From the UHGV virus genome UHGV-1735045: 15,250 nucleotides of DNA, one strand, 5' to 3'. Both the position numbers and the translations under genes were made by a program. Shown piece by piece: positions 1,650 through 14,704 of the stretch. The first letter of the stretch is position 1. Each line of letters opens with the position of its first letter. The notes beneath the pieces are model-generated. The model was not told the origin of the DNA. It was given only the letters and a program-made list of their open reading frames with translations, and ran no database searches. The stretch comes from a virus.

Positions 1650-4600
1650 TCAGCTAATCGTGATGCCTGCAGTGGCTTTCTTCATCACAACAACCAGCAA
1701 ATCGCTGATACTTGCTGTGGGATACCAGCCATTTACCCACCATGCTGATACAGAAAACTCCAGCGTCATGTGGCCGCGACCAGCAGGCATATCAATAACA
1801 CCACTGTAAATCAGCGTATTATCCAGCGCGGTACGGTTATAAATTTCAGCACCGTTTTTCCGTACTATCAGGCGGCATGACGAATAAGTATCGCTGTTCT
1901 CCCGCTCATGTCTGGCACCGCTGAAAGCCACCGCCGGAATAACAATCTGCCGGTTAAACGGCTGATCGTCATAAACCCTGACGGTAATGGTTCCTGATGG
2001 CCAACGCTCCGGTGCACGGGAGTCACGGGGGAAAGCCTTACCCACTGTTTTAACGAGATCGCCTTCAATCTGGTTTGCAGACAGTTTCCCTCTGATGACA
2101 CAGTTCTCGTTAATGGTGACATTATTGAGCGTGCCGGTATTCGCCGTGATGGCTCCACTGATATCCGCATTGCGGGCTGTCAGCCTGCCATCCGGCGTCA
2201 GGGAAAACGTCGGAGGATTGCCGGATGACGTGATGCTCACCGCAAACAGTCGCTTCAGGAACACGTCGTTCATGAACAGCTGATTCCCCTGCGCCACAAA
2301 CAGCGGCGTGGTGTTGCCGTTCTCCGGGGTAATCATCGCAATGCGATCGGCCTGCAGCAGAATGTTACTCAGGGTCTGACCATCAACATCCTCAATCCCC
2401 GCGCCAATCCCGGCCACATAGGGAATACCGTTTTTTGTTTTCTGCACCTTCAGCATATACATGGCATTCAGCTCATTGCGCGTGTCTGACTGAACCCGCT
2501 GGATTTGCTGTATGGTCACGGCCTGGTCACCCAGCTTTTTATCCGTGGTCGAGGTAATTTCACTCCCTTTTTTATCCACGTACTGGCGGACCTGTGCTAT
2601 CTGTCGGGCGTTTTCTGACTGCCCCTGGCTGACAGTCTGTGAGATTTCACTGCTCACCCGGTCCACTTTCTGGCTCACCTGCGCGATGGCCAGTGTCTGG
2701 TCCTCATTCTTTTTCGCAACCAGCTGCGTGAGGCTGTTTTCCGCCTTCCCGATTTTCCGGGTCACTTCTGCGATATCCGTGTCCATCCGCTGACGGATAT
2801 CTTCTTCCAGTTGCGTGACCTCCGTACGCAGCGCTGAAGCATCAATGCGCTCTTTCAGTGCCTGCCCCAGAAGCGTCTCATCTATCAGCCCCCGGAAAAT
2901 TTCCAGATACCCTTCACCATCATTGCTGGGCTGCCCGCTGGCTTCCACAAAAGCAGATTTTCCCACCAGGTTGACGCTTCGCACGTAAAACCAGAAATCC
3001 GTCCCCGGCTTAATCCGGCTCCCCTGGACAGTCCACTGACTGCCGGTCCCCAGATAACGGGCAGATTTTTCCACCTGTGCTGTGTTCGTGATGCGTTTTT
3101 CCGAAAACCAGAACTCAAACTGCACCGTCGGGTCATACACCGCAAGACGCGGGACCGCCGTTATCTGAAAATACCCCGGCGTCAGCTCAATGGTGGCGGG
3201 TTTTGCAGGTGCGTTAATCCGGAACGATACCGACGCCGGATCGCCCTGCTGTCCCCGGGCATTTACCGCCCGGACCGTCAGCGTGTAACGCCCCAGCGCC
3301 AGCTGCCTGAAGCGGTAAGTGGTTTCCGCCGTCCGGGCCGTGCTGACCAGCCGCTCACTGCCGTCATCCGCTGTTACGGTCAGACGGAGCAGGAAGCTCA
3401 CGCCCTTCACCACCTTCGGCGTGTCCCAGCGCGCCAGCACCTGATATTCCCCGCTGTCTGCGGTGACTTCGGCGGTCAGGTGCTGCACCGCTGGCGGCGT
3501 GACACCATTCACCGTGCCACTCTGTTCGCCGTCAAAGTGCGCCCCGTTATCCACGATGGCCTCTTTTTCCGGTACATGCTGCACGGCGGTGATGGCATAC
3601 GTGCCGTCGTCATTCTCACGGATACTCACGCAGCGGAACAGGCGCTGGCGCAGCGTCGGCAGCTTAAGCCCCCACACGCTGTATTCAGCAACACCGTCAG
3701 GAACACGGCTCACTTTTACCTTCACGCCGTCGGTGACGGACTGAACCTCCACGCTGACCGGACTCCCCTGCCCGTCAACCAGGCTTATCAGCGTGGTGCC
3801 GGAGGATGGCAGCGTGATTTCACGGTCGAGCGTCAGCGTCCGGGTCTGGCTGTTCACCGCCAGCACGCGCCCGCCGGTGCTGATACCCGCATAGTCATCA
3901 TCGCAGATTTCAATGACATCCCCCGGTACATGGCGAAGCCCTTCCGCACCCACGCTGAAGTCCACGGTCTGCGTTTCCAGCAGTTCCGTTTTAATCAGCC
4001 ACAGCCCGGCGCGGTGCGCCTGCCCCCGGCTGGTACAGCCAAAGGCATCCATCTTCGTGACGTTACGACCGTAACGGGCAATGGCCTGCGTATCTTCAAC
4101 AAGCTCTGTCGCCGTCTCCCAGCCGTTGTTCGGGTCAATCCAGTTCACCTCAACGGCATTATGGCGGTCCTTCAGGGCGCTGAAGCTGTAGCGGAACGGC
4201 GCGCCATCATCCGGCATCACCACATTACTGCGGTTATAGGTCCACACCTTATCTGATGGTCGGTCCTGCACGAACGTCAGCGTCTGCCCGTTCCATACCG
4301 GCATACAGCGCATCGCCGAGCAGAAATCACTGAGAACATCCCACGCCTTACGCTGTGTGGTCAGCCAGGCATTACAGGTGATGCGCGGCTCCGTGCCGCC
4401 AAAGCCGTCCGGCACTGACTGGTCGCAGTACTGGCCGATGACATACAGCGCCCATTTATCCACATCCGCCGCACCAAGACGTTTCCCCATGCCGTAGCGC
4501 GGATGGGTCAGCATATCCCACAGACACCAGGCCATGTTGTTGCTGTATGCTGGCTTAAACGTTCCGTCCCAGATACCGCTGTATTGCCGCGTCTGCGGGT

Positions 4601-5348
4601 TATAGTTCGACGGCACCTGCAGAATGCGCCCGCGAAGATGATAATTACGGCTCACCTGCTGGCTGCCGAACTGCTCCGAGTCCACCTGTACGCCGACCAG
4701 TGCCGTGTTCGGGTAGCACTGTTTCACATCGATGATTTCTGTGTATGACGACCAGAGCGTTTTGTTCTGCAGCTGGTCTGTGGTGCTGTCCGGCGTCATC
4801 CTGCGCATCCGGATATTAAACGGGCGCGGCGGCAGGTTATCCACCACCACCGAGGCCAGATACTGCGACGTGGTTTTGCCCTTAATGGTGATGTCTTTTT
4901 CCGTCACCCAGCCACCGTTACGCTGTATCTGAACCAGCAGACGGACTTCCGACGGATTCCTGTCACCCTTTGAGGTGGTTTCCACCAGTGCCTGCACACC
5001 GAAGGTAAAGCGCAGACGGTCGATGTTTGCCGACGTGATGGTCCGGGTAATCGGCGTGTCGTACTTCACTTCCGTACCCAGCACCGTCTCGGAGCCGGAG
5101 GATTCAAACCCCTCCGGCGGTGTCTGCTCCTGCTCACCGGCACGGAACACCACCGTGACACCGGAGATGTTGGTATTCCCCTCAGTGTCCAGCACCGGCG
5201 TATTGTTCAGCAGCACGCTTTTTAATCCATCCACCGGACCTTCAACCGGCCCTTCGCTGATGGCATCGATCACACTCAGCAGCTGCGTGGACTTCAGGTT
5301 GTCCTTCGCTTCGCGCGGGGTATGCCCCTTACTGCTTCCTTTACCCAT
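1650..5348 (-). CDS. J: Central tail fibre / tail tip host-specificity protein J, 1232 aa, with extended coiled-coil segment and divergent C-terminal receptor-binding region
   Basis: ORF 1650..5348. The first ~800 residues ([34 protein letters not shown]...) are near-identical to lambda J as I recall it. The conserved motifs YVAGIG and [18 protein letters not shown] are present. The C-terminal ~170 aa differ from lambda. SD GAGGA lies upstream of the ATG. Confidence 0.95.
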
Positions 5349-5370
5349 TCCTCACGCTCCATAAATGACA

Positions 5371-5390
5371 AAACCGCCCGCAGGCGGTTT
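5371..5390 (-). other. Intergenic RNA hairpin between I and J (weak terminator-like)
   Basis: On the minus strand: AAACCGCC-TGCG-GGCGGTTT, then TGTCATTTATGG, leading into the J SD and ATG. Sits in the 60-nt I-J gap. Confidence 0.35.
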
Positions 5391-5408
5391 CACATAAAAC
5401 ATTTTGCA

Positions 5409-6080
5409 TCAGCGACCAATCACCACAACCTGACCACCGTCCCCTTCGTCTGCCGTGCTGATCTCCTGAGAAACCACGCGTGACCCCACGCGCATTTCCC
5501 CGTACAGAACGGGCAGAACATTGCCCTGGGCAACCATGTTATCCAGTGAAGAAAAATAGGTGTTCTGTTTGCCGTTATCCGTTGTCTGTGTGCGGGGGAT
5601 TTTGGGTTTAGGGGCCAGCATCTGCGCCACACCACCGAGCACCATACTGGCACCAAGAGAAAACAGGATGCCGGTCATACCACCGGCCCCAATGGCTGCC
5701 CCCCATGCTGCAAGGGTGGCTCCGGCAGTAAAGAATGATCCGGCAATGGCGGCAGCTCCCAGGACAATCTGGAATACGCCACCTGACTTGGCCCCGGCGA
5801 CTCTGGGAACAATATGAATCACAGCGCCATCAGGCAGAGTCTCATGTAACTGCGCCGTTAATCCGGACGTGCTGACATCCCGCCCGGCAATCCGTACCTG
5901 ATACCAGCCGTCGCTCAGCTTCTGACGAAACGCCGGGAGCTGTGTGGCCAGCGCCCGGATGGCTTCGGCCCCCGTTTTCACACGAAGGTCGATGCGGCGG
6001 CCAAATCGTTGTAAATCCCCGTAAAGGCAGATGCGTGCCATGCCCGGTGACGCCAGAGGGAGTGTGTGCGTCGCTGCCAT
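5409..6080 (-). CDS. I: Tail tip assembly protein I, 223 aa
   Basis: ORF 5409..6080. Sequence MAATHTLPLASPGMARICLYGDLQRFGRR... matches lambda gpI. The 672-nt length and 103-nt overlap with the K 3' end are exactly as in lambda. Confidence 0.93.
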   Translation of the reverse strand: MAATHTLPLASPGMARICLYGDLQRFGRRIDLRVKTGAEAIRALATQLPAFRQKLSDGWYQVRIAGRDVSTSGLTAQLHETLPDGAVIHIVPRVAGAKSGGVFQIVLGAAAIAGSFFTAGATLAAWGAAIGAGGMTGILFSLGASMVLGGVAQMLAPKPKIPRTQTTDNGKQNTYFSSLDNMVAQGNVLPVLYGEMRVGSRVVSQEISTADEGDGGQVVVIGR

Positions 6081-6721
6081 TTGTCGGTATACCTCTCTCG
6101 TTTGCTCAGTTGTTCAGGAATATGGTGCAGCAGCTCGCCATCACCACAGTAAATGGCGGCATGATTCGGCACCGATGAACCAAAACAGCACAGCAGCACA
6201 TCGCCCGGTTGTGCTGATGACAACGGCACCTGATACAGCCCTGTGGCCTCCAGATTATCCAGATAGAGATTCTGACCGTGACGCCACCAGTCATCCTCGC
6301 GATGAAAATCCGGCATCTCAATCCCCGCCAGATGATAAGCATCCCGGAACAGCGTGTAACAGTCCGTCACCCCGTGCTCAAAGCGCCGCCCGGTGAGATG
6401 CGGCACACAGAGGAACTTATGAATCGTCCCCCGGCAGACCAGCCACCACGGCAAATCACTCTGCACCTGCAGCCGCCGGTCGGCTTCACTCAGCCAGGGC
6501 AGACCACCGGGATGGCTGTGGACCAGCGCGACAATCTCACCCTGCATCTCTGCCTGCAGCCAGTCCTCCGGCGACATACGGAAATACGCCTCCGGCTCAC
6601 CGGAGATATTCACGCAGGGAAAATATCTTTCCCCCTCCGGCGTTCTCACCACGAAGCCGCACGACTCCGCTGGCGCACATCGCCGGGCGTGCGCCAGAAT
6701 CGCTGATTCTGTCTCTGTCAT
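5978..6721 (-). CDS. K: Tail tip assembly protein K (JAB/MPN + NlpC/P60 two-domain protein); long form 247 aa, with the lambda-annotated 199-aa form starting at 6577
   Basis: ORF 5978..6721. Contains the JAMM-like motif HSHPGGLPWLSEAD (H-x-H-x7-S-x2-D) and a downstream Cys/His-containing region (GVTDCYTLF ... NHAAIY ... HH) consistent with NlpC/P60. The frame is open upstream to an ATG at 6721, 5 nt after the L stop. The internal ATG at 6577 (MSPEDW...) corresponds to the conventional lambda K start. Confidence 0.85.
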   Translation of the reverse strand: MTETESAILAHARRCAPAESCGFVVRTPEGERYFPCVNISGEPEAYFRMSPEDWLQAEMQGEIVALVHSHPGGLPWLSEADRRLQVQSDLPWWLVCRGTIHKFLCVPHLTGRRFEHGVTDCYTLFRDAYHLAGIEMPDFHREDDWWRHGQNLYLDNLEATGLYQVPLSSAQPGDVLLCCFGSSVPNHAAIYCGDGELLHHIPEQLSKRERYTDKWQRRTHSLWRHRAWHASAFTGIYNDLAAASTFV

Positions 6722-6726
6722 GGGAT

Positions 6727-7425
6727 TTACTGCGAAAGTTTGTTAATGGAAAGGAAGCCGCCAAAGTTGCCGACGTTATTGCGAAACTTACAGCCACTCA
6801 GGCATTTGCTGCATTTATCCTTCGTGATATCGGACGTCGGCTGGTCATATTCATCAGCGACAGCCGGACCGTGATAACCGCACTCATCACCGCGATAGGT
6901 CCAGGTGCAGGTGTTGGCCAGCATGATGCGCCCCGGAAAAACGGCACCATCCGTTTCCGTCGGCGTGGACAGTACAAAAGAGGCACTGACCGCGCTCAGT
7001 TCGCTGCACTGCTCGATGCGCCAGCGGCTGATCACCTCCTGCTCCGGATCGGCGTCGCTGTTTCCGTTGACGAAGTTCACCGCATCCAGAAAACGGGCAT
7101 AAACCTTACGCCTGACCACCGTTCCGCCGACCAGACTCTGCAGGTCTTCCGCCATCCCGGTGACCATACCGTACAGGTTAGAAACCGTCAGCGTGGGGCG
7201 CGTACTGGTGCCTTTGCCATTCAGTTCAAAACCACTCCCCTGAATGGGATACGGCTGATACTGTCGCCCCTGCCAGGTGACCGGCTCACCTTTTTCGTTC
7301 TGCTCATTACAGAAAAAATAACGTTCTCCACCGACCTCTGTCAGGTCGATTTCCCAGAGCACCACGCTGGCCGACTGCTCCGCACGGGTGCATTCATTCA
7401 GTGTTTCCTGCCGGATATCCTGCAT
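6727..7425 (-). CDS. L: Tail tip assembly protein L, 232 aa, with C-terminal cysteine cluster
   Basis: ORF 6727..7425. Sequence MQDIRQETLNECTRAEQSASVVLWEIDL... matches lambda gpL. Length 699 nt as in lambda. Cys residues at 173, 182, 205, 208 and 212. The L ATG overlaps the M stop (TGATG). Confidence 0.93.
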   Translation of the reverse strand: MQDIRQETLNECTRAEQSASVVLWEIDLTEVGGERYFFCNEQNEKGEPVTWQGRQYQPYPIQGSGFELNGKGTSTRPTLTVSNLYGMVTGMAEDLQSLVGGTVVRRKVYARFLDAVNFVNGNSDADPEQEVISRWRIEQCSELSAVSASFVLSTPTETDGAVFPGRIMLANTCTWTYRGDECGYHGPAVADEYDQPTSDITKDKCSKCLSGCKFRNNVGNFGGFLSINKLSQ

Positions 7426-7754
7426 CAGTTCACCACCTGTTCAAACTCTGCGCTGAACTCAACACGCAGCATACTGACCCGCGACGACCATTTTGCGCAG
7501 GTCACCTTTATCTGCCGCCACTCATAAGGCGGCGTCCACAGAAAGGCTTTCCAGCCCCCGTGCTCTTCCAGAAACGACTCCAGCGCCGCGGCCTCCCAAC
7601 GGGGAACAGAAAGCGTCACGCTGTACGTTTTCAGGTTGGCATTCAGCCCGGCAGGCGCTCGCTGGGAATAGCCATCACCAAAGCGCACCTTTCTTACAGA
7701 AGGGGCCGAAGCCACATCCATACCGGGTTTCACTTTCCAGCGGAAGGTTTTCAT
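7425..7754 (-). CDS. M: Tail tip assembly protein M, 109 aa
   Basis: ORF 7425..7754. Sequence MKTFRWKVKPGMDVASAPSVRKVRFGDGYSQRAPAGLNANL... matches lambda gpM. Length 330 nt as in lambda. The start overlaps the H stop. Confidence 0.93.
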   Translation of the reverse strand: MKTFRWKVKPGMDVASAPSVRKVRFGDGYSQRAPAGLNANLKTYSVTLSVPRWEAAALESFLEEHGGWKAFLWTPPYEWRQIKVTCAKWSSRVSMLRVEFSAEFEQVVN

Positions 7755-10312
7755 CGTCCACCTCCGGAGAACAGGCCACCATCACGCATCTGTGTCTGAA
7801 TTTCATCACGGGCACCCTTGCGGGCCATGTCATACACTGCCTTCATCATCTGTGGACCTGGCAGACCATTCGTACCGTCGTTCTGAATCACCACGTGATT
7901 GTTCTGATTAAAATTAATGCCTTCAGCCCGCCGCATCTGCGCCGGACTTCCGGCACCGCCCACATAACCACCTTCCGCATAGCCCCGCATCAGGCGGTAC
8001 AGGTTGCCGACACCAATCCGGCTGGTTGCCTCCTTCGTGAAGACAAATTCACCACGGTGAACAATCCCCGCTGGCTCATATTTGCCGCCGGTTCCCGTAA
8101 ATCCCCCGGTCGCAAAATGGAATTTCGCCGCAGCGGCCTGAATGGCTGTACCGCCTGACGCGGATGCTCCACCACTGGCAGCACCGCCAATGGCGCTGCC
8201 GATACTCCCGACAATCCCCACCATTGCCTGCTTAAGCAGAATTTCTGTCATCATGGACAGCACGGAACGGGTGAAGCTGCGCCAGTTCTGCTCACTGCCG
8301 GTCAGCATCGCCGCCATATTCTGTGCAATACCATCAAAGGTCTGCGTGGCTGCACTTTTAACCTGCGACATACTGTCCGTGGCGCTCTCTTCCCACTCAC
8401 TCCAGCCGGACTTCAGGCCTGCCATCCAGCTCCCGCGAAGCTGGTCTTCAGCCGCCCAGGTCTTTTTCTGCTCTGACATGACGTTATTCAGCGCCAGCGG
8501 ATTATCGCCATACTGTTCCTTCAGGCGCTGTTCCGTGGCTTCCCGTTCTGCCTGCCGGTCAGTCAGCCCCCGGCTTTTCGCATCAATGGCGGCCCGTTTT
8601 GCCCGTTGCTGCTGTGCGAATTTATCCGCCTGCTGCGCCAGCGCGTTCAGGTGCTCCTGATACGTGACCTTATCGCCAAGTGCAGCCAGCTGGCGTTTGT
8701 ACTCCAGCGTCTCATCTTTATGCGCCAGCAGGGATTTCTCCTGTGCGGACAGCTGGCGACGTTGCGCCGCCTCCTCCAGTACCGCGAACTGACTTTCCGC
8801 CTTCCACAAATCCCGGCGCTGCTGGCTGATTTTCTCATTCGCTCCGGCATGCTTCTCCAGTGTCCGGAGTTCTGCCTGAAGCGTCAGCAGGGCAGCATGA
8901 GCACTGTCTTCCTGACGATCGCCCGCAGACACCTTCACGCCGGACTGTTTCGGCTTTTTCAGCGTCGCTTCATAATCCTTTTTCGCCGCCGCCATCAGCG
9001 TGTTGTAATCCGCCTGCAGGATTTTCCCGTCTTTCAGTGCCTTGTTCAGTTCTTCCTGACGGGCGGTATATTTCTCCAGCGGCGTCTGCAGCCGTTCGTA
9101 AGCCTTCTGCGCCTCTTCGGTATATTTCAGCCGTGACGCTTCGGTATCGCTCTGCTGCTGCGCATTTTTGTCCTGTTGACTCTGCTGTTCAGCCTTCTTT
9201 CGGGCGGCTTCAAGCGCAAGACGGGCCTTTTCACGATCATCCCAGTAACGCGCCCGCGCTTCATCGTTAACAAAATAATCATCCTTGCGCAGATTCCAGA
9301 TGTCGTCCGCTTTCTTAAACGCAGCCTCTGCCTTAATCAGCATCTCCTGAGCGGTATCAGGACGACCAATATCCAGCACCGCATCCCACATGGATTTGAA
9401 TGCCCGTGCTGTCCTGTCTGCCCAGGTTTCCAGCGTGCCCATGTTCTCTTTCAGGCGTCGGGTCTGGTCATCAAACCCTTTCGTTGCGGCCTCGTTCGCC
9501 GCCTGCAATGCCCCGGCTTCATCGCCGGAACGCTGCAACTGAGCAACATACGCAATCTGCTCCGCCGTCACGTTATGGAACTGGCGCGCCATCGCTGTCA
9601 GCCCCGACGTCGGGTCAGTGGTCAGCTTCCCGAAGGCTTCAGCGACCTTGTCCACCTCCACGCCGGATGCAGAGGAGAAACGCGCCACACTCTGGCTGAT
9701 GGACGCAATCTGAGCCTCACCGCTTACCCCCGCCTTAACCAGCGCACTGAGTGACTCGCTGGTCTGGTTAAACGTCAGCCCTGCCGCCTGCCCGGCTCTG
9801 GACAGGACCAGCATACGATCTGCCGTCAGACCCGACTGATTACCGGAAAGGACCAGCGTTTTGTTGAAATCGGACAGGGTTGAGTTACCCTGATACCAGG
9901 CATACGCCAGCGCACCGGTCGCCACCGCCAGCGAGGTGGCCCCGACCATCGGCAGGGTGATCGCACCGGCAAGCCCCCGGAACATGGGGATCATCCCGCC
10001 GAAGGAGTCCTTCACCTGACCGCCCTGTTGCAGCAGGATCAGCCAGGGATTCTGACCACCGGCAAGCTGCGTGGCGATATCCGTAAACTGTGCGGGCAGG
10101 GTTCGCATGGCGGCTTTATACTGCCCGACGGAAATCCCCGCTTTCTGTGCAGCCAGCGCCTGTCGGCTCAGCGACTGTTCAACGACTGCCGCTGTTTTTT
10201 TCGCATCACTTTCCGTACCGGAAAAATGACGCCTGACTCTGGCCATCTGCTCGTCAAATCTGGCCGCATCCAGACTTAAATCAACGACCAGATCGCCTAC
10301 CGGTTCAGCCAT
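7751..10312 (-). CDS. H: Tail tape measure protein H, 853 aa
   Basis: ORF 7751..10312. Sequence MAEPVGDLVVDLSLDAARFDEQMARVRRHF... matches lambda gpH, with the same 2562-nt length. Long central coiled-coil-rich region and a C-terminal Gly/Ala-rich hydrophobic segment (MVGIVGSIGSAIGGAASGGASASGG). The start overlaps the T stop by 8 nt. Confidence 0.95.
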   Translation of the reverse strand: MAEPVGDLVVDLSLDAARFDEQMARVRRHFSGTESDAKKTAAVVEQSLSRQALAAQKAGISVGQYKAAMRTLPAQFTDIATQLAGGQNPWLILLQQGGQVKDSFGGMIPMFRGLAGAITLPMVGATSLAVATGALAYAWYQGNSTLSDFNKTLVLSGNQSGLTADRMLVLSRAGQAAGLTFNQTSESLSALVKAGVSGEAQIASISQSVARFSSASGVEVDKVAEAFGKLTTDPTSGLTAMARQFHNVTAEQIAYVAQLQRSGDEAGALQAANEAATKGFDDQTRRLKENMGTLETWADRTARAFKSMWDAVLDIGRPDTAQEMLIKAEAAFKKADDIWNLRKDDYFVNDEARARYWDDREKARLALEAARKKAEQQSQQDKNAQQQSDTEASRLKYTEEAQKAYERLQTPLEKYTARQEELNKALKDGKILQADYNTLMAAAKKDYEATLKKPKQSGVKVSAGDRQEDSAHAALLTLQAELRTLEKHAGANEKISQQRRDLWKAESQFAVLEEAAQRRQLSAQEKSLLAHKDETLEYKRQLAALGDKVTYQEHLNALAQQADKFAQQQRAKRAAIDAKSRGLTDRQAEREATEQRLKEQYGDNPLALNNVMSEQKKTWAAEDQLRGSWMAGLKSGWSEWEESATDSMSQVKSAATQTFDGIAQNMAAMLTGSEQNWRSFTRSVLSMMTEILLKQAMVGIVGSIGSAIGGAASGGASASGGTAIQAAAAKFHFATGGFTGTGGKYEPAGIVHRGEFVFTKEATSRIGVGNLYRLMRGYAEGGYVGGAGSPAQMRRAEGINFNQNNHVVIQNDGTNGLPGPQMMKAVYDMARKGARDEIQTQMRDGGLFSGGGR

Positions 10313-13678: not shown

Positions 13679-14704
13679 TTACGCCAGTTGTACAGACACG
13701 AACTCATCAGGGTCAGCCAGCAGCATCAGCGGTGCTGACTGAATCATGGTGAACTCACGCGCCGGATCGCCGGATGTCTTCCAGTTTTTCGGATAACGGG
13801 GAGACGCATTAATACCCTCACTCAATGCATCCGCATCCTGAATGCAGCCATAGGTGCGCAGACCGCGTGCATGAGTGTTACCCAGCACCATCGTGTTGTC
13901 CGGCAGGAAGTTCTTTTTGACGCCGTTTTCCACGTACTGTCCGGAATACACGACGATGGCCACATCGCCATACATTCCCTTATAAGACACCGCTTTGCCC
14001 AGGTCTTTCACCGCTGTCTCCAGCTCGGAATGAGAGCCGCGACGGGTATCCAGCTTATCCTTGACGGCCTTGAAGGAACGGAACAGCGCCCAGCCTTTCG
14101 GATCAAACACGATGATATTCACCACACCGCTGGCGTTCAGCGCGTAGGCTTCGATATCGTCGGTCGGGTCATACGTGGACTTGTCACGCTTGCTCCACGC
14201 CGTGCCGCCGGACTGCGTGATGTTGTTGGCCGCACTGCGGCCCATATCCACCTCAACCGGATCGAAGGCTTCACCGGTCATGGTGTATTTGCCCTTGAGC
14301 ACGGCAGAAACTGCCTGCATCTCTTCCACCTGGGCAATGGCCAGCTCTTCGTCACGCATGTTCTGCATGATGATGCGACGGCGACGGTAAGCCGGGTCCG
14401 CCAGATTCTGCGGATCTTCATCCGGCAGGCGACGCAGGGTCATCTGCGGATTCACTTCATGCTTGGGTTTGACATATCCCGGCGTAAATTCAGAGGTGGA
14501 GCCGCCACGGGAACGGATAACCTCACCGGAAACAATCGGCGAAACGTACAGCGCCATGTTTACCAGTCCAGGAATTTGTGAGAGATAGACTTTCTCTGTA
14601 GTGAAGGGATAGCTCTCACGGAAAAAGAGACGCAGAAACAGCGGATCAAACTTAAATTTCTGCTCATTTGCCGCCAGCAGCTGGGCGGTTGTGTACATCG
14701 ACAT
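13679..14704 (-). CDS. E: Major capsid protein E, 341 aa
   Basis: The ORF track gives 13679..14731, but the lambda-equivalent start is the ATG at 14704 (MSMYTTAQLLAANEQKFKFDPLFLRLFFRESYPFTTEKVYL...). That gives 1026 nt, the lambda E length, and a 55-nt D-E gap as in lambda. Confidence 0.95.
   Translation of the reverse strand: MSMYTTAQLLAANEQKFKFDPLFLRLFFRESYPFTTEKVYLSQIPGLVNMALYVSPIVSGEVIRSRGGSTSEFTPGYVKPKHEVNPQMTLRRLPDEDPQNLADPAYRRRRIIMQNMRDEELAIAQVEEMQAVSAVLKGKYTMTGEAFDPVEVDMGRSAANNITQSGGTAWSKRDKSTYDPTDDIEAYALNASGVVNIIVFDPKGWALFRSFKAVKDKLDTRRGSHSELETAVKDLGKAVSYKGMYGDVAIVVYSGQYVENGVKKNFLPDNTMVLGNTHARGLRTYGCIQDADALSEGINASPRYPKNWKTSGDPAREFTMIQSAPLMLLADPDEFVSVQLA

What the first reader, a model, noticed from the sequence alone, without database searches (positions are those of the whole stretch)
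6577..6721. K reading frame extends 48 codons upstream of the conventional start, to an ATG 5 nt after the L stop
The K frame is open for 247 codons, starting at an ATG at 6721-6719 (MTETESAILAHARRCAPAESCGFVV...), whereas the conventional lambda K start corresponds to the internal Met at 6577 (MSPEDW..., 199 aa). In the short form the JAMM motif H-S-H-P-x7-S-x2-D begins only 18 residues from the N-terminus. That leaves too little sequence for the N-terminal half of a JAB/MPN fold, which normally places a conserved acidic residue several tens of residues upstream of the HxH. The extension supplies candidate residues (AESCG). Arguing the other way, the internal start has a GGAGG about 12 nt upstream, while the upstream ATG has no obvious SD and would rely on translational coupling to L. 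Both isoforms could exist.
Basis: partly seen in the sequence, partly recalled or inferred. Interest (0 to 1): 0.45.

Follow-up and report, generated by a model that had tools for sequence, protein, structure and literature searches.

The report
Lambda tail gene K: true start
The tail-assembly gene K of this lambda-like prophage really does encode a 247-residue two-domain peptidase, and the textbook 199-residue version comes from one missing base in the 1982 lambda reference sequence; genome pipelines already use the long form, so this corrects a record rather than revealing new biology.

Summary
An ATG at 6721-6719 lies 5 nt after the L stop and opens a 247-codon frame. The conventional lambda start is the internal ATG at 6577-6575.

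The extra 48 codons are coding. They carry the catalytic Glu (E19), the first helix and two core strands of a JAB/JAMM domain. They are conserved in more than 100 distant homologues and show a pN/pS of 0.22. Only the long form passes the Pfam Prok-JAB threshold, and only the long model matches solved JAMM structures significantly.

The reference record (J02459/NC_001416) lacks one G after position 14266, which breaks the frame 10 nt before the internal ATG. Five other lambda-derived records carry the G, and no match in 5,426 complete E. coli genomes lacks it.

The long start has no Shine-Dalgarno sequence and abuts the L stop, as in distant homologues. Translational coupling is therefore the likely, but inferred, route of initiation. 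The internal ATG has a strong Shine-Dalgarno sequence, so a minor 199-residue isoform is not excluded. Its Met is not conserved, however.

PGAP already annotates 247 residues, and the JAB + NlpC/P60 architecture was published in 2006. This is known biology and a useful curation point for RefSeq lambda and Swiss-Prot TIPK_LAMBD.

The parts
6727..7425 (-). Gene L (minor tail / tail tip protein, 232 aa). Its TAA stop is at 6729-6727.
   Evidence: ORF list. PGAP annotation of the near-identical E. coli locus and the lambda annotation.
6722..6726 (-). Five-base L-K spacer (ATCCC) with no Shine-Dalgarno. Proposed site of termination-reinitiation coupling.
   Evidence: Sequence. Anti-SD duplex of +0.7 kcal/mol for the 22 nt upstream of the ATG, against -5.9 to -11.7 for the accepted starts of the other genes tested (Z, U, V, G, H, M, L, J).
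5978..6721 (-). Gene K, full length: 247 codons plus the TGA stop at 5980-5978. It encodes a two-domain peptidase, JAB/JAMM plus NlpC/P60.
   Evidence: ORF. Pfam PF14464 at 52.1 bits and PF00877 at 49.2 bits. PGAP annotates the same 744-nt CDS. AF2 model with pLDDT 97.2 and pTM 0.91.
6578..6721 (-). The 48 codons missing from the conventional lambda K. They encode helix 3-15 and strands 21-27 and 30-36 of the JAB fold.
   Evidence: Secondary structure of the AF2 model. Conservation of H11, A12, P17, E19, C21, G22, Y33, N38 and F47. pN/pS of 0.22, with segregating sites at codon positions 1/2/3 numbering 9/2/22.
6665..6667 (-). Codon 19 (GAG), the catalytic Glu of the JAMM motif E-x(n)-H-S-H-x7-S-x2-D.
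   Evidence: Glu in 97% of divergent homologues. It aligns with the Glu of 2kks and 2kcq. The motif definition comes from PMC300881.
6479..6520 (-). H68-S69-H70 ... S78-x-x-D81, the zinc-binding part of the JAMM motif.
   Evidence: H68, H70 and D81 are invariant, and S69 and S78 are at least 90% conserved, in alignment A2.
6587..6587 (-). The G (in GGAGGCGTATTTCC) that is absent from the lambda reference after position 14266. Its absence breaks the K frame in that record.
   Evidence: Alignments and translations. Whole-genome comparison of LC730321 with NC_001416.
6589..6593 (-). GGAGG inside codons 43-45 (Pro-Glu-Ala). It is Shine-Dalgarno-like for the internal ATG, with a spacing of 11 nt.
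   Evidence: Duplex of -9.5 kcal/mol. Only 10 of 326 minus-strand ATGs in the window have a duplex of -9 or stronger.
6575..6577 (-). Internal ATG (Met49). It is the conventional lambda K start and a possible secondary initiation site.
   Evidence: ATG in 75 of 77 close alleles, with CTG and ATA in the other two. Ile in most distant homologues.
6050..6391 (-). NlpC/P60 (C40) cysteine-peptidase domain, residues 111-224, with conserved D120-C121, H187 and H199-H200.
   Evidence: Pfam PF00877 over residues 111-224. Conserved columns in A2. Foldseek hits to MepS/Spr and 4hpe.
5978..6080 (-). K/I overlap of 103 nt. The long form of gene I starts at ATG 6080 in another frame.
   Evidence: ORF list and lambda annotation. 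In the overlap, pN/pS is 0.036 in the I frame and 7.4 in the K frame.

Best explanation
Gene K encodes one 247-residue cytoplasmic assembly enzyme that starts at ATG 6721. Residues 1 to about 108 form a complete JAB/JAMM zinc-metallopeptidase domain (E19, H68, H70, S78, D81). Residues 111-224 form an NlpC/P60 cysteine-peptidase domain.

The start codon has no Shine-Dalgarno and sits 5 nt after the L stop. Ribosomes finishing L most likely reinitiate on K by translational coupling. This step is inferred, not shown.

The 199-residue K of the lambda literature is an annotation artefact. The 1982 reference sequence lacks one G after position 14266, which puts the first 45 codons out of frame. That left the SD-preceded internal ATG as the only usable start in that record.

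Functionally, K acts during tail-tip assembly and is not kept in the virion. Its most likely substrate, following a published and untested proposal, is the ubiquitin-like N-terminal domain of gpI.
For: Shown here:

1. Frame and start. The ORF spans 5978-6721 and its ATG is the first possible start.
2. Homology of the extension. Pfam Prok-JAB scores 52.1 bits over model positions 4-102 of 114 for the long form and 22.4 bits (below the 25-bit cut-off) for the short form. The 48 residues alone give E = 3.5e-5. A profile of 108 homologues matches the solved JAMM proteins 2kks, 2kcq and 5lda/5ld9 from profile position 3 or 16.
3. Family-wide conservation. In 102 homologues below 65% identity, E19 is 97% conserved, G22 98%, N38 97%, F47 94%, C21 91% and P17 90%. 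Their N-termini align within a few residues of position 1, and Met49 is Met in only 12%.
4. Coding constraint. Across 77 close alleles, pN/pS for codons 2-48 is 0.22, and variation is concentrated at third codon positions.
5. Fold. The AF2 model has pLDDT 97.2, and residues 3-36 form a helix and two strands of the domain. The long model matches P. furiosus JAMM1 (5ld9) at E = 8.8e-5 over 109 columns. The short model matches at E = 0.17 over 62 columns, and all 24 of its hits at E <= 0.001 are NlpC/P60 proteins.
6. The reference error. J02459/NC_001416 lack one G relative to the window, phage 21 and E. coli prophages. LC730321, PV340536, OM418625, EU078592 (DE3) and KT232076 all carry it and read through. 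LC730321 is 48,503 bp with +G after 14266. In 5,426 complete E. coli genomes the top-ranked matches to the reference stretch (the 12 rows listed) are 99.4% identical and one base longer, so none is an exact copy. Feiss et al. 2022 report 9 differences from the published sequence shared by many laboratory lambdas (PMC9119081).
7. Operon layout. The 199-aa start leaves a 148-nt gap after L, the largest from nu1 to J. The long start leaves 5 nt.
8. Coupling. In 76 distinct distant homologues, the first in-frame start lies -20 to +12 nt from the end of the upstream ORF in 70 cases, most often as an ATGA overlap. The SD there is weak, with a median duplex of -3.0 kcal/mol.
9. Annotation. PGAP annotates the 744-nt CDS. 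The exact long lambda protein occurs on at least 1,000 contigs.

From the literature:

- gpK is absent from virions by mass spectrometry and is unresolved in cryo-EM (PMC10721106, PMC12617516).
- The JAB + NlpC/P60 architecture and gpI processing were proposed by Iyer et al. 2006 (PMC1779556).
- The N-terminal domain of gpI is not seen in virions (PMC11101478).
Against: - The long start has no Shine-Dalgarno at all (+0.7 kcal/mol), whereas the internal ATG has a strong one (-9.5) of a kind seen at only 10 of 326 ATGs in the window.
- I found no protein-level evidence for either N-terminus: no N-terminal sequence, no mass spectrometry from lysates and no start-site ribosome profiling.
- Two further records (OR974322 and the unverified OR474059) share the reference's missing G. 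OR974322 is essentially the reference plus Sam7 and looks reference-guided, but I cannot prove that.
- AF2 confidence does not discriminate between the forms, at pLDDT 97.2 and 96.9.
- The enzymatic activities and the gpI substrate are inferred and untested.
Confidence: 0.85

Rival explanations
1. Two nested products are made. The 247-residue enzyme arises by coupling to L. A 199-residue protein arises from the SD-preceded internal ATG; it has an intact NlpC/P60 domain and a crippled JAB remnant. This would be analogous to other nested lambda gene pairs such as C/Nu3 or S107/S105.
For: - GGAGG lies 11 nt upstream of ATG 6577 and forms a -9.5 kcal/mol duplex.
- The ATG is kept in 75 of 77 close alleles.
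- The short model keeps a well-predicted NlpC/P60 domain.
- Gene callers often choose this start, producing 199-aa clusters with thousands of members.
Against: - The residue is Ile, Leu or Val in most distant homologues and is never Met in 76 viral-contig homologues. Any short isoform would therefore be specific to the lambda clade.
- Two intact close alleles have CTG or ATA at this codon, and others weaken the GGAGG.
- The GGAGG is built from Pro43-Glu44 codons, and Pro43 is itself 67% conserved, so the motif may be incidental.
- A spacing of 11 nt is longer than the usual optimum; this rests on established knowledge and was not tested here.
- There is no protein evidence.
Confidence: 0.2
2. 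The conventional view holds: only the 199-residue protein is made, and the upstream 144 nt is an untranslated L-K spacer.
For: - The RefSeq and Swiss-Prot annotations of lambda (NC_001416; TIPK_LAMBD) give 199 aa.
- Expert annotation of lambda imm21 gives a 199-aa K with a ribosome-binding site.
- The SD sits at the internal ATG and there is none at the upstream ATG.
Against: - The upstream 48 codons show purifying selection.
- They contain the most conserved residues of the family's JAB domain.
- They are needed for a significant match to the JAB family and fold.
- The annotation traces to a one-base discrepancy found only in the reference and two derivative-looking records.
- The same authors annotate 247 aa in phage 21.
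Confidence: 0.03
3. The single-base deletion is real in some laboratory lambda stocks, as the stf frameshift of lambda PaPa is. Those phages would live with a 199-residue K, showing that the JAB domain is dispensable in the laboratory.
For: The reference and OR974322, which carries Sam7 and so derives from real lambda DNA or reads, both lack the G. Laboratory lambda is known to carry at least one tolerated frameshift, in stf (PMC12617516).
Against: - Five lambda-derived records from different laboratories carry the G: DE3, the imm21 and imm434 hybrids, Lambda_AGU, PV340536 and KT232076.
- No complete E. coli genome lacks it.
- OR974322 otherwise copies the reference apart from Sam7, a small cluster of substitutions at 45037-45041 and one homopolymer deletion. 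That pattern suggests reference-guided consensus calling.
- From memory and unverified here: a commercial supplier lists '+G at 14266' for lambda cI857 Sam7, the strain that Sanger et al. sequenced.
Confidence: 0.05

Closest known systems
Lambda tail tip assembly protein K (gpK; Swiss-Prot TIPK_LAMBD, NP_040598, 199 aa as annotated)
   Same: It is the same gene in the same H-M-L-K-I-J order. The window protein differs from lambda's long K at 7 of 247 residues. K is needed for tail assembly and is not found in virions (PMC10721106, PMC12617516).
   Different: The deposited lambda protein lacks residues 1-48 because the reference DNA lacks one G. The window, resequenced lambdas and all prophages examined encode 247 aa.
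[quoted passage not shown]
   Same: The two-domain architecture, the neighbourhood with the ubiquitin-like TAPI (gpI) and TAPJ, and the length all match.
   Different: Nothing material differs. The window gene is an ordinary member of this family.
Prokaryotic JAMM/MPN+ peptidases with solved structures: P. furiosus JAMM1 (5ld9/5lda, in complex with the ubiquitin-like SAMP2), AfJAMM (1oi0/1r5x), DSY2949 (2kks)
   Same: The complete E...HSH...S..D motif and the fold are shared. Foldseek gives E = 8.8e-5, rmsd 2.6 A over 109 columns and target TM-score 0.66. The domain starts at the very N-terminus, as it does in those proteins.
   Different: Here the domain is fused to a C-terminal NlpC/P60 domain and sits in a phage tail operon. 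Zinc binding, activity and substrate are untested.
Translationally coupled genes of phage late operons (stop-start overlaps such as ATGA, or gaps of a few nucleotides)
   Same: The stop-to-start distance is 5 nt and there is no SD. Distant K homologues show the same abutting arrangement with weak SDs.
   Different: Reinitiation itself has not been demonstrated for L-K.

Membership tests
JAB/MPN+ (JAMM) metallopeptidases, Pfam PF14464 Prok-JAB | Score above the family's curated threshold over most of the model | tested here: met
   The 247-aa form scores 52.1 bits against a 25-bit cut-off, over model positions 4-102 of 114. The 199-aa form scores 22.4 bits over model positions 63-102 and fails.
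JAB/MPN+ (JAMM) metallopeptidases | Complete motif E-x(n)-H-S/T-H-x7-S-x2-D (Ambroggio et al., PMC300881) | tested here: met
   E19, H68, S69, H70, S78 and D81 are present. The Glu aligns with that of 2kks and 2kcq. The 199-aa form lacks the Glu.
JAB/MPN+ (JAMM) metallopeptidases | MPN fold | tested here: met
   The AF2 model has pLDDT 97.2. Foldseek finds JAMM1, 2kks, AMSH, Rpn11 and CSN5 at E < 1e-3. The truncated model loses significance, at E = 0.17 over 62 columns.
JAB/MPN+ (JAMM) metallopeptidases | Zinc binding and (iso)peptidase activity | not testable with these tools
   This needs purified 247-aa protein, metal analysis and a cleavage assay.
NlpC/P60 (C40) peptidases, Pfam PF00877 | Score above the curated threshold, with conserved catalytic Cys and His residues | tested here: met
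   49.2 bits against a 23-bit cut-off over residues 111-224. C121, H187 and H199/H200 are at least 90% conserved and D120 is invariant. Foldseek hits MepS/Spr, 4hpe and LytE. Activity was not tested.
Lambda-type tail tip assembly protein K (TAPK) | Position between the L and I/J homologues in a siphophage tail operon, with near-identity to lambda K | tested here: met
   The gene order H-M-L-K-I-J is seen in the window and in annotated relatives. 240 of 247 residues are identical to lambda's long K.
Translationally coupled gene pair (L-K) | Start codon within a few nucleotides of the upstream stop and no independent ribosome-binding site | tested here: met
   The gap is 5 nt and the SD duplex is +0.7 kcal/mol. 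The same layout occurs in 70 of 76 distant homologues.
Translationally coupled gene pair (L-K) | K translation depends on L translation reaching its stop codon | not testable with these tools
   This needs a premature stop in L, or a reporter fusion, with K output measured.
Nested dual-start genes (the lambda C/Nu3 and S107/S105 kind) | An internal in-frame start with its own ribosome-binding site, conserved across relatives, and a detectable second product | tested here: inconclusive
   The SD and ATG are present and are kept in 75 of 77 close alleles. The Met is absent from distant homologues. No data on a second product were available.

The most novel reading that the evidence does not exclude
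In the lambda clade only, the internal SD-ATG at 6577 is a real second initiation site. Infected cells would then make both the full JAB + NlpC/P60 enzyme and a 199-residue NlpC/P60 protein without JAMM activity. The ratio would be set by L-K coupling and would tune processing of the ubiquitin-like gpI during tail-tip assembly.
Probability: 0.15. Interest if true: 0.45.

Novelty: already known. Interest (0 to 1): 0.27.

Why it matters
gpK is one of the last lambda morphogenetic proteins without a known role. The form in RefSeq (NC_001416), in Swiss-Prot (TIPK_LAMBD) and in recent analyses lacks the catalytic Glu and three of the eight secondary-structure elements of its JAB domain. One 2020 analysis, working on '199 in total', reported only the peptidase domain at residues 52-182 (PMC7291167).

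Anyone who clones, models or searches mass spectra with the 199-residue sequence is working with a truncated enzyme. Using the 247-residue ORF makes the 2006 proposal directly testable: a phage JAMM peptidase cleaving a ubiquitin-like tail protein. Correcting the start is a curation gain, not a new kind of biology.

Tried and rejected
- **AF2 confidence as a discriminator.** The 247-aa and 199-aa models scored pLDDT 97.2 and 96.9, so confidence says nothing. The fold search on each model was informative instead.
- **Literature on the discrepancy at position 14266 or on the K N-terminus.** Searches found no explicit statement. The nearest is Feiss et al. 2022, which mentions '9 differences' without listing them.
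- **Papers not held.** The Casjens and Hendrix 2015 review and the Liu et al. 2013 lambda ribosome-profiling paper were unavailable. I could not check start-site footprints or any published correction.
- **Papers read without result.** PMC2966988, PMC10695390, PMC3045373 and PMC3224144 had nothing on K.
- **Locus searches.** The search for related loci with P0127 returned nothing. The first viral scan returned only relatives at 97-99% identity. Distant loci came from queries with P0131 and P0174.
- **First coupling analysis.** The version that picked the start nearest the upstream stop is biased towards small gaps. I replaced it with the first in-frame start.
- **Promoter and terminator scan of 5300-7900.** It found nothing above shuffle expectation, so there is no sign of an independent K transcript.
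- **A separate small gene in the upstream codons.** This was rejected. The 76-aa ORF seen in the reference exists only because of the missing G.
- **gpK size on gels.** I recall an apparent size in the older literature but could not verify it, so I did not use it. The calculated masses are 28.3 and 23.0 kDa.
Full report
**What is in the sequence**

The window is the tail-gene block of a lambda-like prophage, read on the minus strand. The gene order is H (7751-10312), M (7425-7754), L (6727-7425), K, I and J (1650-5348). It is 99.4% identical over K to an E. coli chromosome and 96-98% identical to many lambdoid phages.

L ends with TAA at 6729-6727. After five bases (ATCCC) an ATG at 6721-6719 opens a frame that runs to TGA at 5980-5978, giving 247 codons. 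An in-frame stop lies eight codons upstream with no other start codon in between, so this ATG is the first possible start. The internal ATG at 6577-6575 begins MSPEDW... and gives 199 residues. That is exactly the K annotated in the lambda reference, NC_001416 14276..14875.

**Why lambda K is annotated short**

In the lambda reference the upstream frame is not open. The ORF from the post-L ATG stops after 76 codons, and the mechanical ORF list gives K as 199 aa. Alignment shows the cause. The reference reads GGAGGC-TATTTCC where the window, phage 21 and an E. coli prophage read GGAGGCGTATTTCC. The missing base corresponds to window position 6587.

- Among 153 phage records matching this stretch, only J02459, NC_001416, OR474059 (marked UNVERIFIED) and OR974322 are identical to the reference. 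All the other 56 records listed align with one extra base or with substitutions.
- Five lambda-derived records from different laboratories carry the G and read through. They are LC730321 Lambda_AGU, PV340536, OM418625 lambda imm21, EU078592 DE3 and KT232076.
- A whole-genome comparison places the insertion in LC730321 after reference position 14266.
- OR974322 is the reference plus the Sam7 change, a small cluster of substitutions at 45037-45041 and one homopolymer deletion. It comes from chicken cloacal swabs, so it looks like a reference-guided consensus of control DNA.
- In 5,426 complete E. coli genomes the top-ranked matches to the reference stretch (the 12 rows listed) are 99.4% identical and one base longer, so none is an exact copy.
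- Feiss et al. [quoted passage not shown] They give no list.
- From memory, and not verified here, a commercial supplier lists '+G at 14266' for lambda cI857 Sam7.

The simplest reading is a one-base error in the 1982 sequence. That error left the internal ATG, with its Shine-Dalgarno, as the only usable start.

**Are the 48 codons coding?**

Four independent lines of evidence say yes.

- *Family match.* Pfam Prok-JAB (PF14464) matches residues 4-97 of the long form over model positions 4-102 of 114, at 52.1 bits against a 25-bit cut-off. The short form matches only model positions 63-102 at 22.4 bits, below the cut-off. The 48 residues alone give E = 3.5e-5.
- *Conservation.* An exhaustive search of 1.84 billion cluster representatives found 2,799 relatives. 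In 102 full-length homologues below 65% identity, the extension holds some of the family's best-conserved residues: E19 97%, G22 98%, N38 97%, F47 94%, C21 91%, P17 90% and H11 83%. Their N-termini align within a few residues of position 1. Met49 is Met in 12% and Ile in 65%. Alignment A2 gives G22, N38, H68, H70, D81 and D120 as invariant.
- *Selection.* Across 77 distinct close alleles, codons 2-48 have pN/pS = 0.22, with segregating sites at codon positions 1/2/3 numbering 9/2/22. For comparison, codons 49-110 give 0.115 and codons 111-213 give 0.054.
- *Structure.* With the 108-sequence alignment, AlphaFold2 gives pLDDT 97.2 and pTM 0.91. Residues 3-15 form a helix and residues 21-27 and 30-36 form strands of the N-terminal domain.
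  - Foldseek matches the long model to P. furiosus JAMM1 (5ld9; E = 8.8e-5, 109 columns, rmsd 2.6 A), and to 2kks, AMSH, Rpn11 and CSN5. It also matches NlpC/P60 enzymes.
  - A model of the 199-aa form is equally confident (pLDDT 96.9), so confidence does not discriminate.
  - The short model's JAMM1 match, however, falls to E = 0.17 over 62 columns, and all 24 of its hits at E <= 0.001 are NlpC/P60 proteins.
  - Sequence and profile searches of solved structures align 'AILAHARRCAPAESCGF' with the 'P-x-E-x-C-G' segment of 2kks and 2kcq.

The JAMM motif is E-x(n)-H-S/T-H-x7-S-x2-D. The His and Asp residues bind zinc and the Glu holds the catalytic water (PMC300881). Here these are E19, H68, S69, H70, S78 and D81. 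The 199-aa form lacks the Glu.

**How translation probably starts**

The 22 nt before ATG 6721 have no anti-SD complementarity (+0.7 kcal/mol). The accepted starts of the other genes tested in the operon score -5.9 to -11.7. The start sits 5 nt after the L stop.

In 76 distinct distant homologues on viral contigs, the first in-frame start (ATG in 66) lies -20 to +12 nt from the end of the upstream ORF in 70 cases. The commonest arrangement is the ATGA overlap, seen in 25. The SD there is weak, with a median duplex of -3.0 kcal/mol. The Glu lies 15-22 residues downstream of that start in 74 cases.

In lambda itself the 199-aa start leaves a 148-nt gap after L. That is the largest gap between nu1 and J, an operon otherwise packed with overlaps or gaps of at most 60 nt. 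Termination-reinitiation coupling to L is therefore the best-supported mechanism. It is inferred from layout, not demonstrated.

**The internal start**

GGAGG at 6593-6589 lies 11 nt before ATG 6577 and pairs at -9.5 kcal/mol. Only 10 of 326 minus-strand ATGs in the window do as well, and at least four of those are accepted gene starts (Z, H, M and I). The ATG is kept in 75 of 77 close alleles; the other two have CTG and ATA, and a few alleles weaken the GGAGG. The equivalent residue is never Met in the 76 distant viral homologues, and is Ile in 67 of them.

A minor 199-residue product in the lambda clade is therefore possible. It is not a conserved feature of the family, and no protein data bear on it. 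I put it at about 0.2.

**What K does**

Both catalytic sites look intact. The JAMM residues are listed above. For the NlpC/P60 domain, Pfam gives 49.2 bits over residues 111-224, with conserved D120-C121, H187 and H199-H200.

gpK is required for tail assembly but is not detected in virions by mass spectrometry and is not resolved by cryo-EM (PMC10721106, PMC12617516). Iyer, Burroughs and Aravind (2006) described TAPK as JAB + NlpC/P60 encoded next to the ubiquitin-like TAPI (gpI). They proposed that the JAB domain releases the ubiquitin-like domain at its C-terminal glycine (PMC1779556).

In virion structures gpI is resolved only from residue 101 or 137 onward, and the N-terminal domain is unseen (PMC11101478, PMC10721106). 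That is compatible with the proposal but does not prove it. The mechanism I commit to has two parts:

- one L-coupled 247-residue enzyme that acts catalytically on gpI during tip assembly and then leaves;
- architecture, catalytic residues and fold are shown here, whereas coupling, activity and substrate are inferred.

**Comparison with what is known, and novelty**

NCBI's PGAP annotates the 744-nt CDS as 'C40 family peptidase' in E. coli genomes and RefSeq phages. The exact long lambda protein occurs on at least 1,000 contigs under names including 'Predicted metal-dependent protease of the PAD1/JAB1 superfamily'. The domain architecture has been in print since 2006. The gene is an ordinary member of a known family.

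What remains uncorrected is the canonical lambda record.

- NC_001416 and Swiss-Prot TIPK_LAMBD still give 199 aa.
- The 2022 expert annotation of lambda imm21 keeps 199 aa although the G is present. The same authors annotate 247 aa in phage 21.
- A 2020 HHpred analysis worked on '199 in total' and reported only the peptidase domain (PMC7291167).

I found no paper that states the cause explicitly, though two likely sources were not available.

**Verdict**

The novelty rating is 'already known', with a practical curation consequence. Interest is about 0.27. Confidence is 0.85 that the 247-residue form is the functional product.

Noticed in passing
window 5978-6080 (minus strand); candidate I starts at 6080, 6041 and 5981: Gene I has its own start-codon problem, in the opposite direction. 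Lambda annotates 223 aa from ATG 6080 (SD duplex -9.3). PGAP aa from GTG 5981 (no SD, -1.5), and a 2020 paper also uses '190 residues'. Inside the K/I overlap, I-frame codons 14-34 have pN/pS = 0.014, while the K frame there has 7.4. I is therefore translated from at least Met14 (MARICLYGDL..., the likely first strand of its ubiquitin-like domain). The PGAP start looks too short.
   Followed up: partly
window 5978-6080: The last 33 codons of K evolve as if constrained by the overlapping I frame. In the K frame pS is 0.003 and pN is 0.024. The C-terminal helix of K appears to tolerate change while the I N-terminus does not.
   Followed up: partly
L006 (OM418625 lambda imm21) 399-762 versus L002 (OL657228 phage 21) 1579-2322: The same expert annotation project calls K 199 aa with a ribosome-binding site in lambda imm21, although the extra G is present and the frame is open. 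It calls K 247 aa, without a ribosome-binding site, in phage 21.
   Followed up: yes
L223 (LC730321 Lambda_AGU), whole genome versus L222 (NC_001416): There are 15 differences from the reference. They include loss of G at 138, +G after 14266, and +C at 20833, the site of the known stf frameshift of laboratory lambda. This stock may therefore encode intact side tail fibres.
   Followed up: no
L224 (OR974322, 'isolate P6/2022/SA' from chicken cloacal swabs): This record is the lambda reference plus the Sam7 change (45352 G>A), a small cluster of substitutions at 45037-45041 and one homopolymer deletion. It is probably laboratory control DNA assembled against the reference rather than an environmental isolate.
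   Followed up: partly
Proteins P0021, P0031, P0045 (L+K domains) and P0014, P0030, P0088 (K+I domains): The public collection holds fused L-K and K-I proteins, with Pfam PF05100 or PF06805 alongside PF14464 and PF00877. Whether these are sequencing frameshifts or real fusions was not examined. Iyer et al. 2006 mention TAPI fusions.
   Followed up: no
window 10848, 10355 and 10349 (minus strand): Three further ATGs with strong Shine-Dalgarno pairing (-9.5 kcal/mol) lie inside the G/T tail-chaperone region and are not annotated starts.
   Followed up: no
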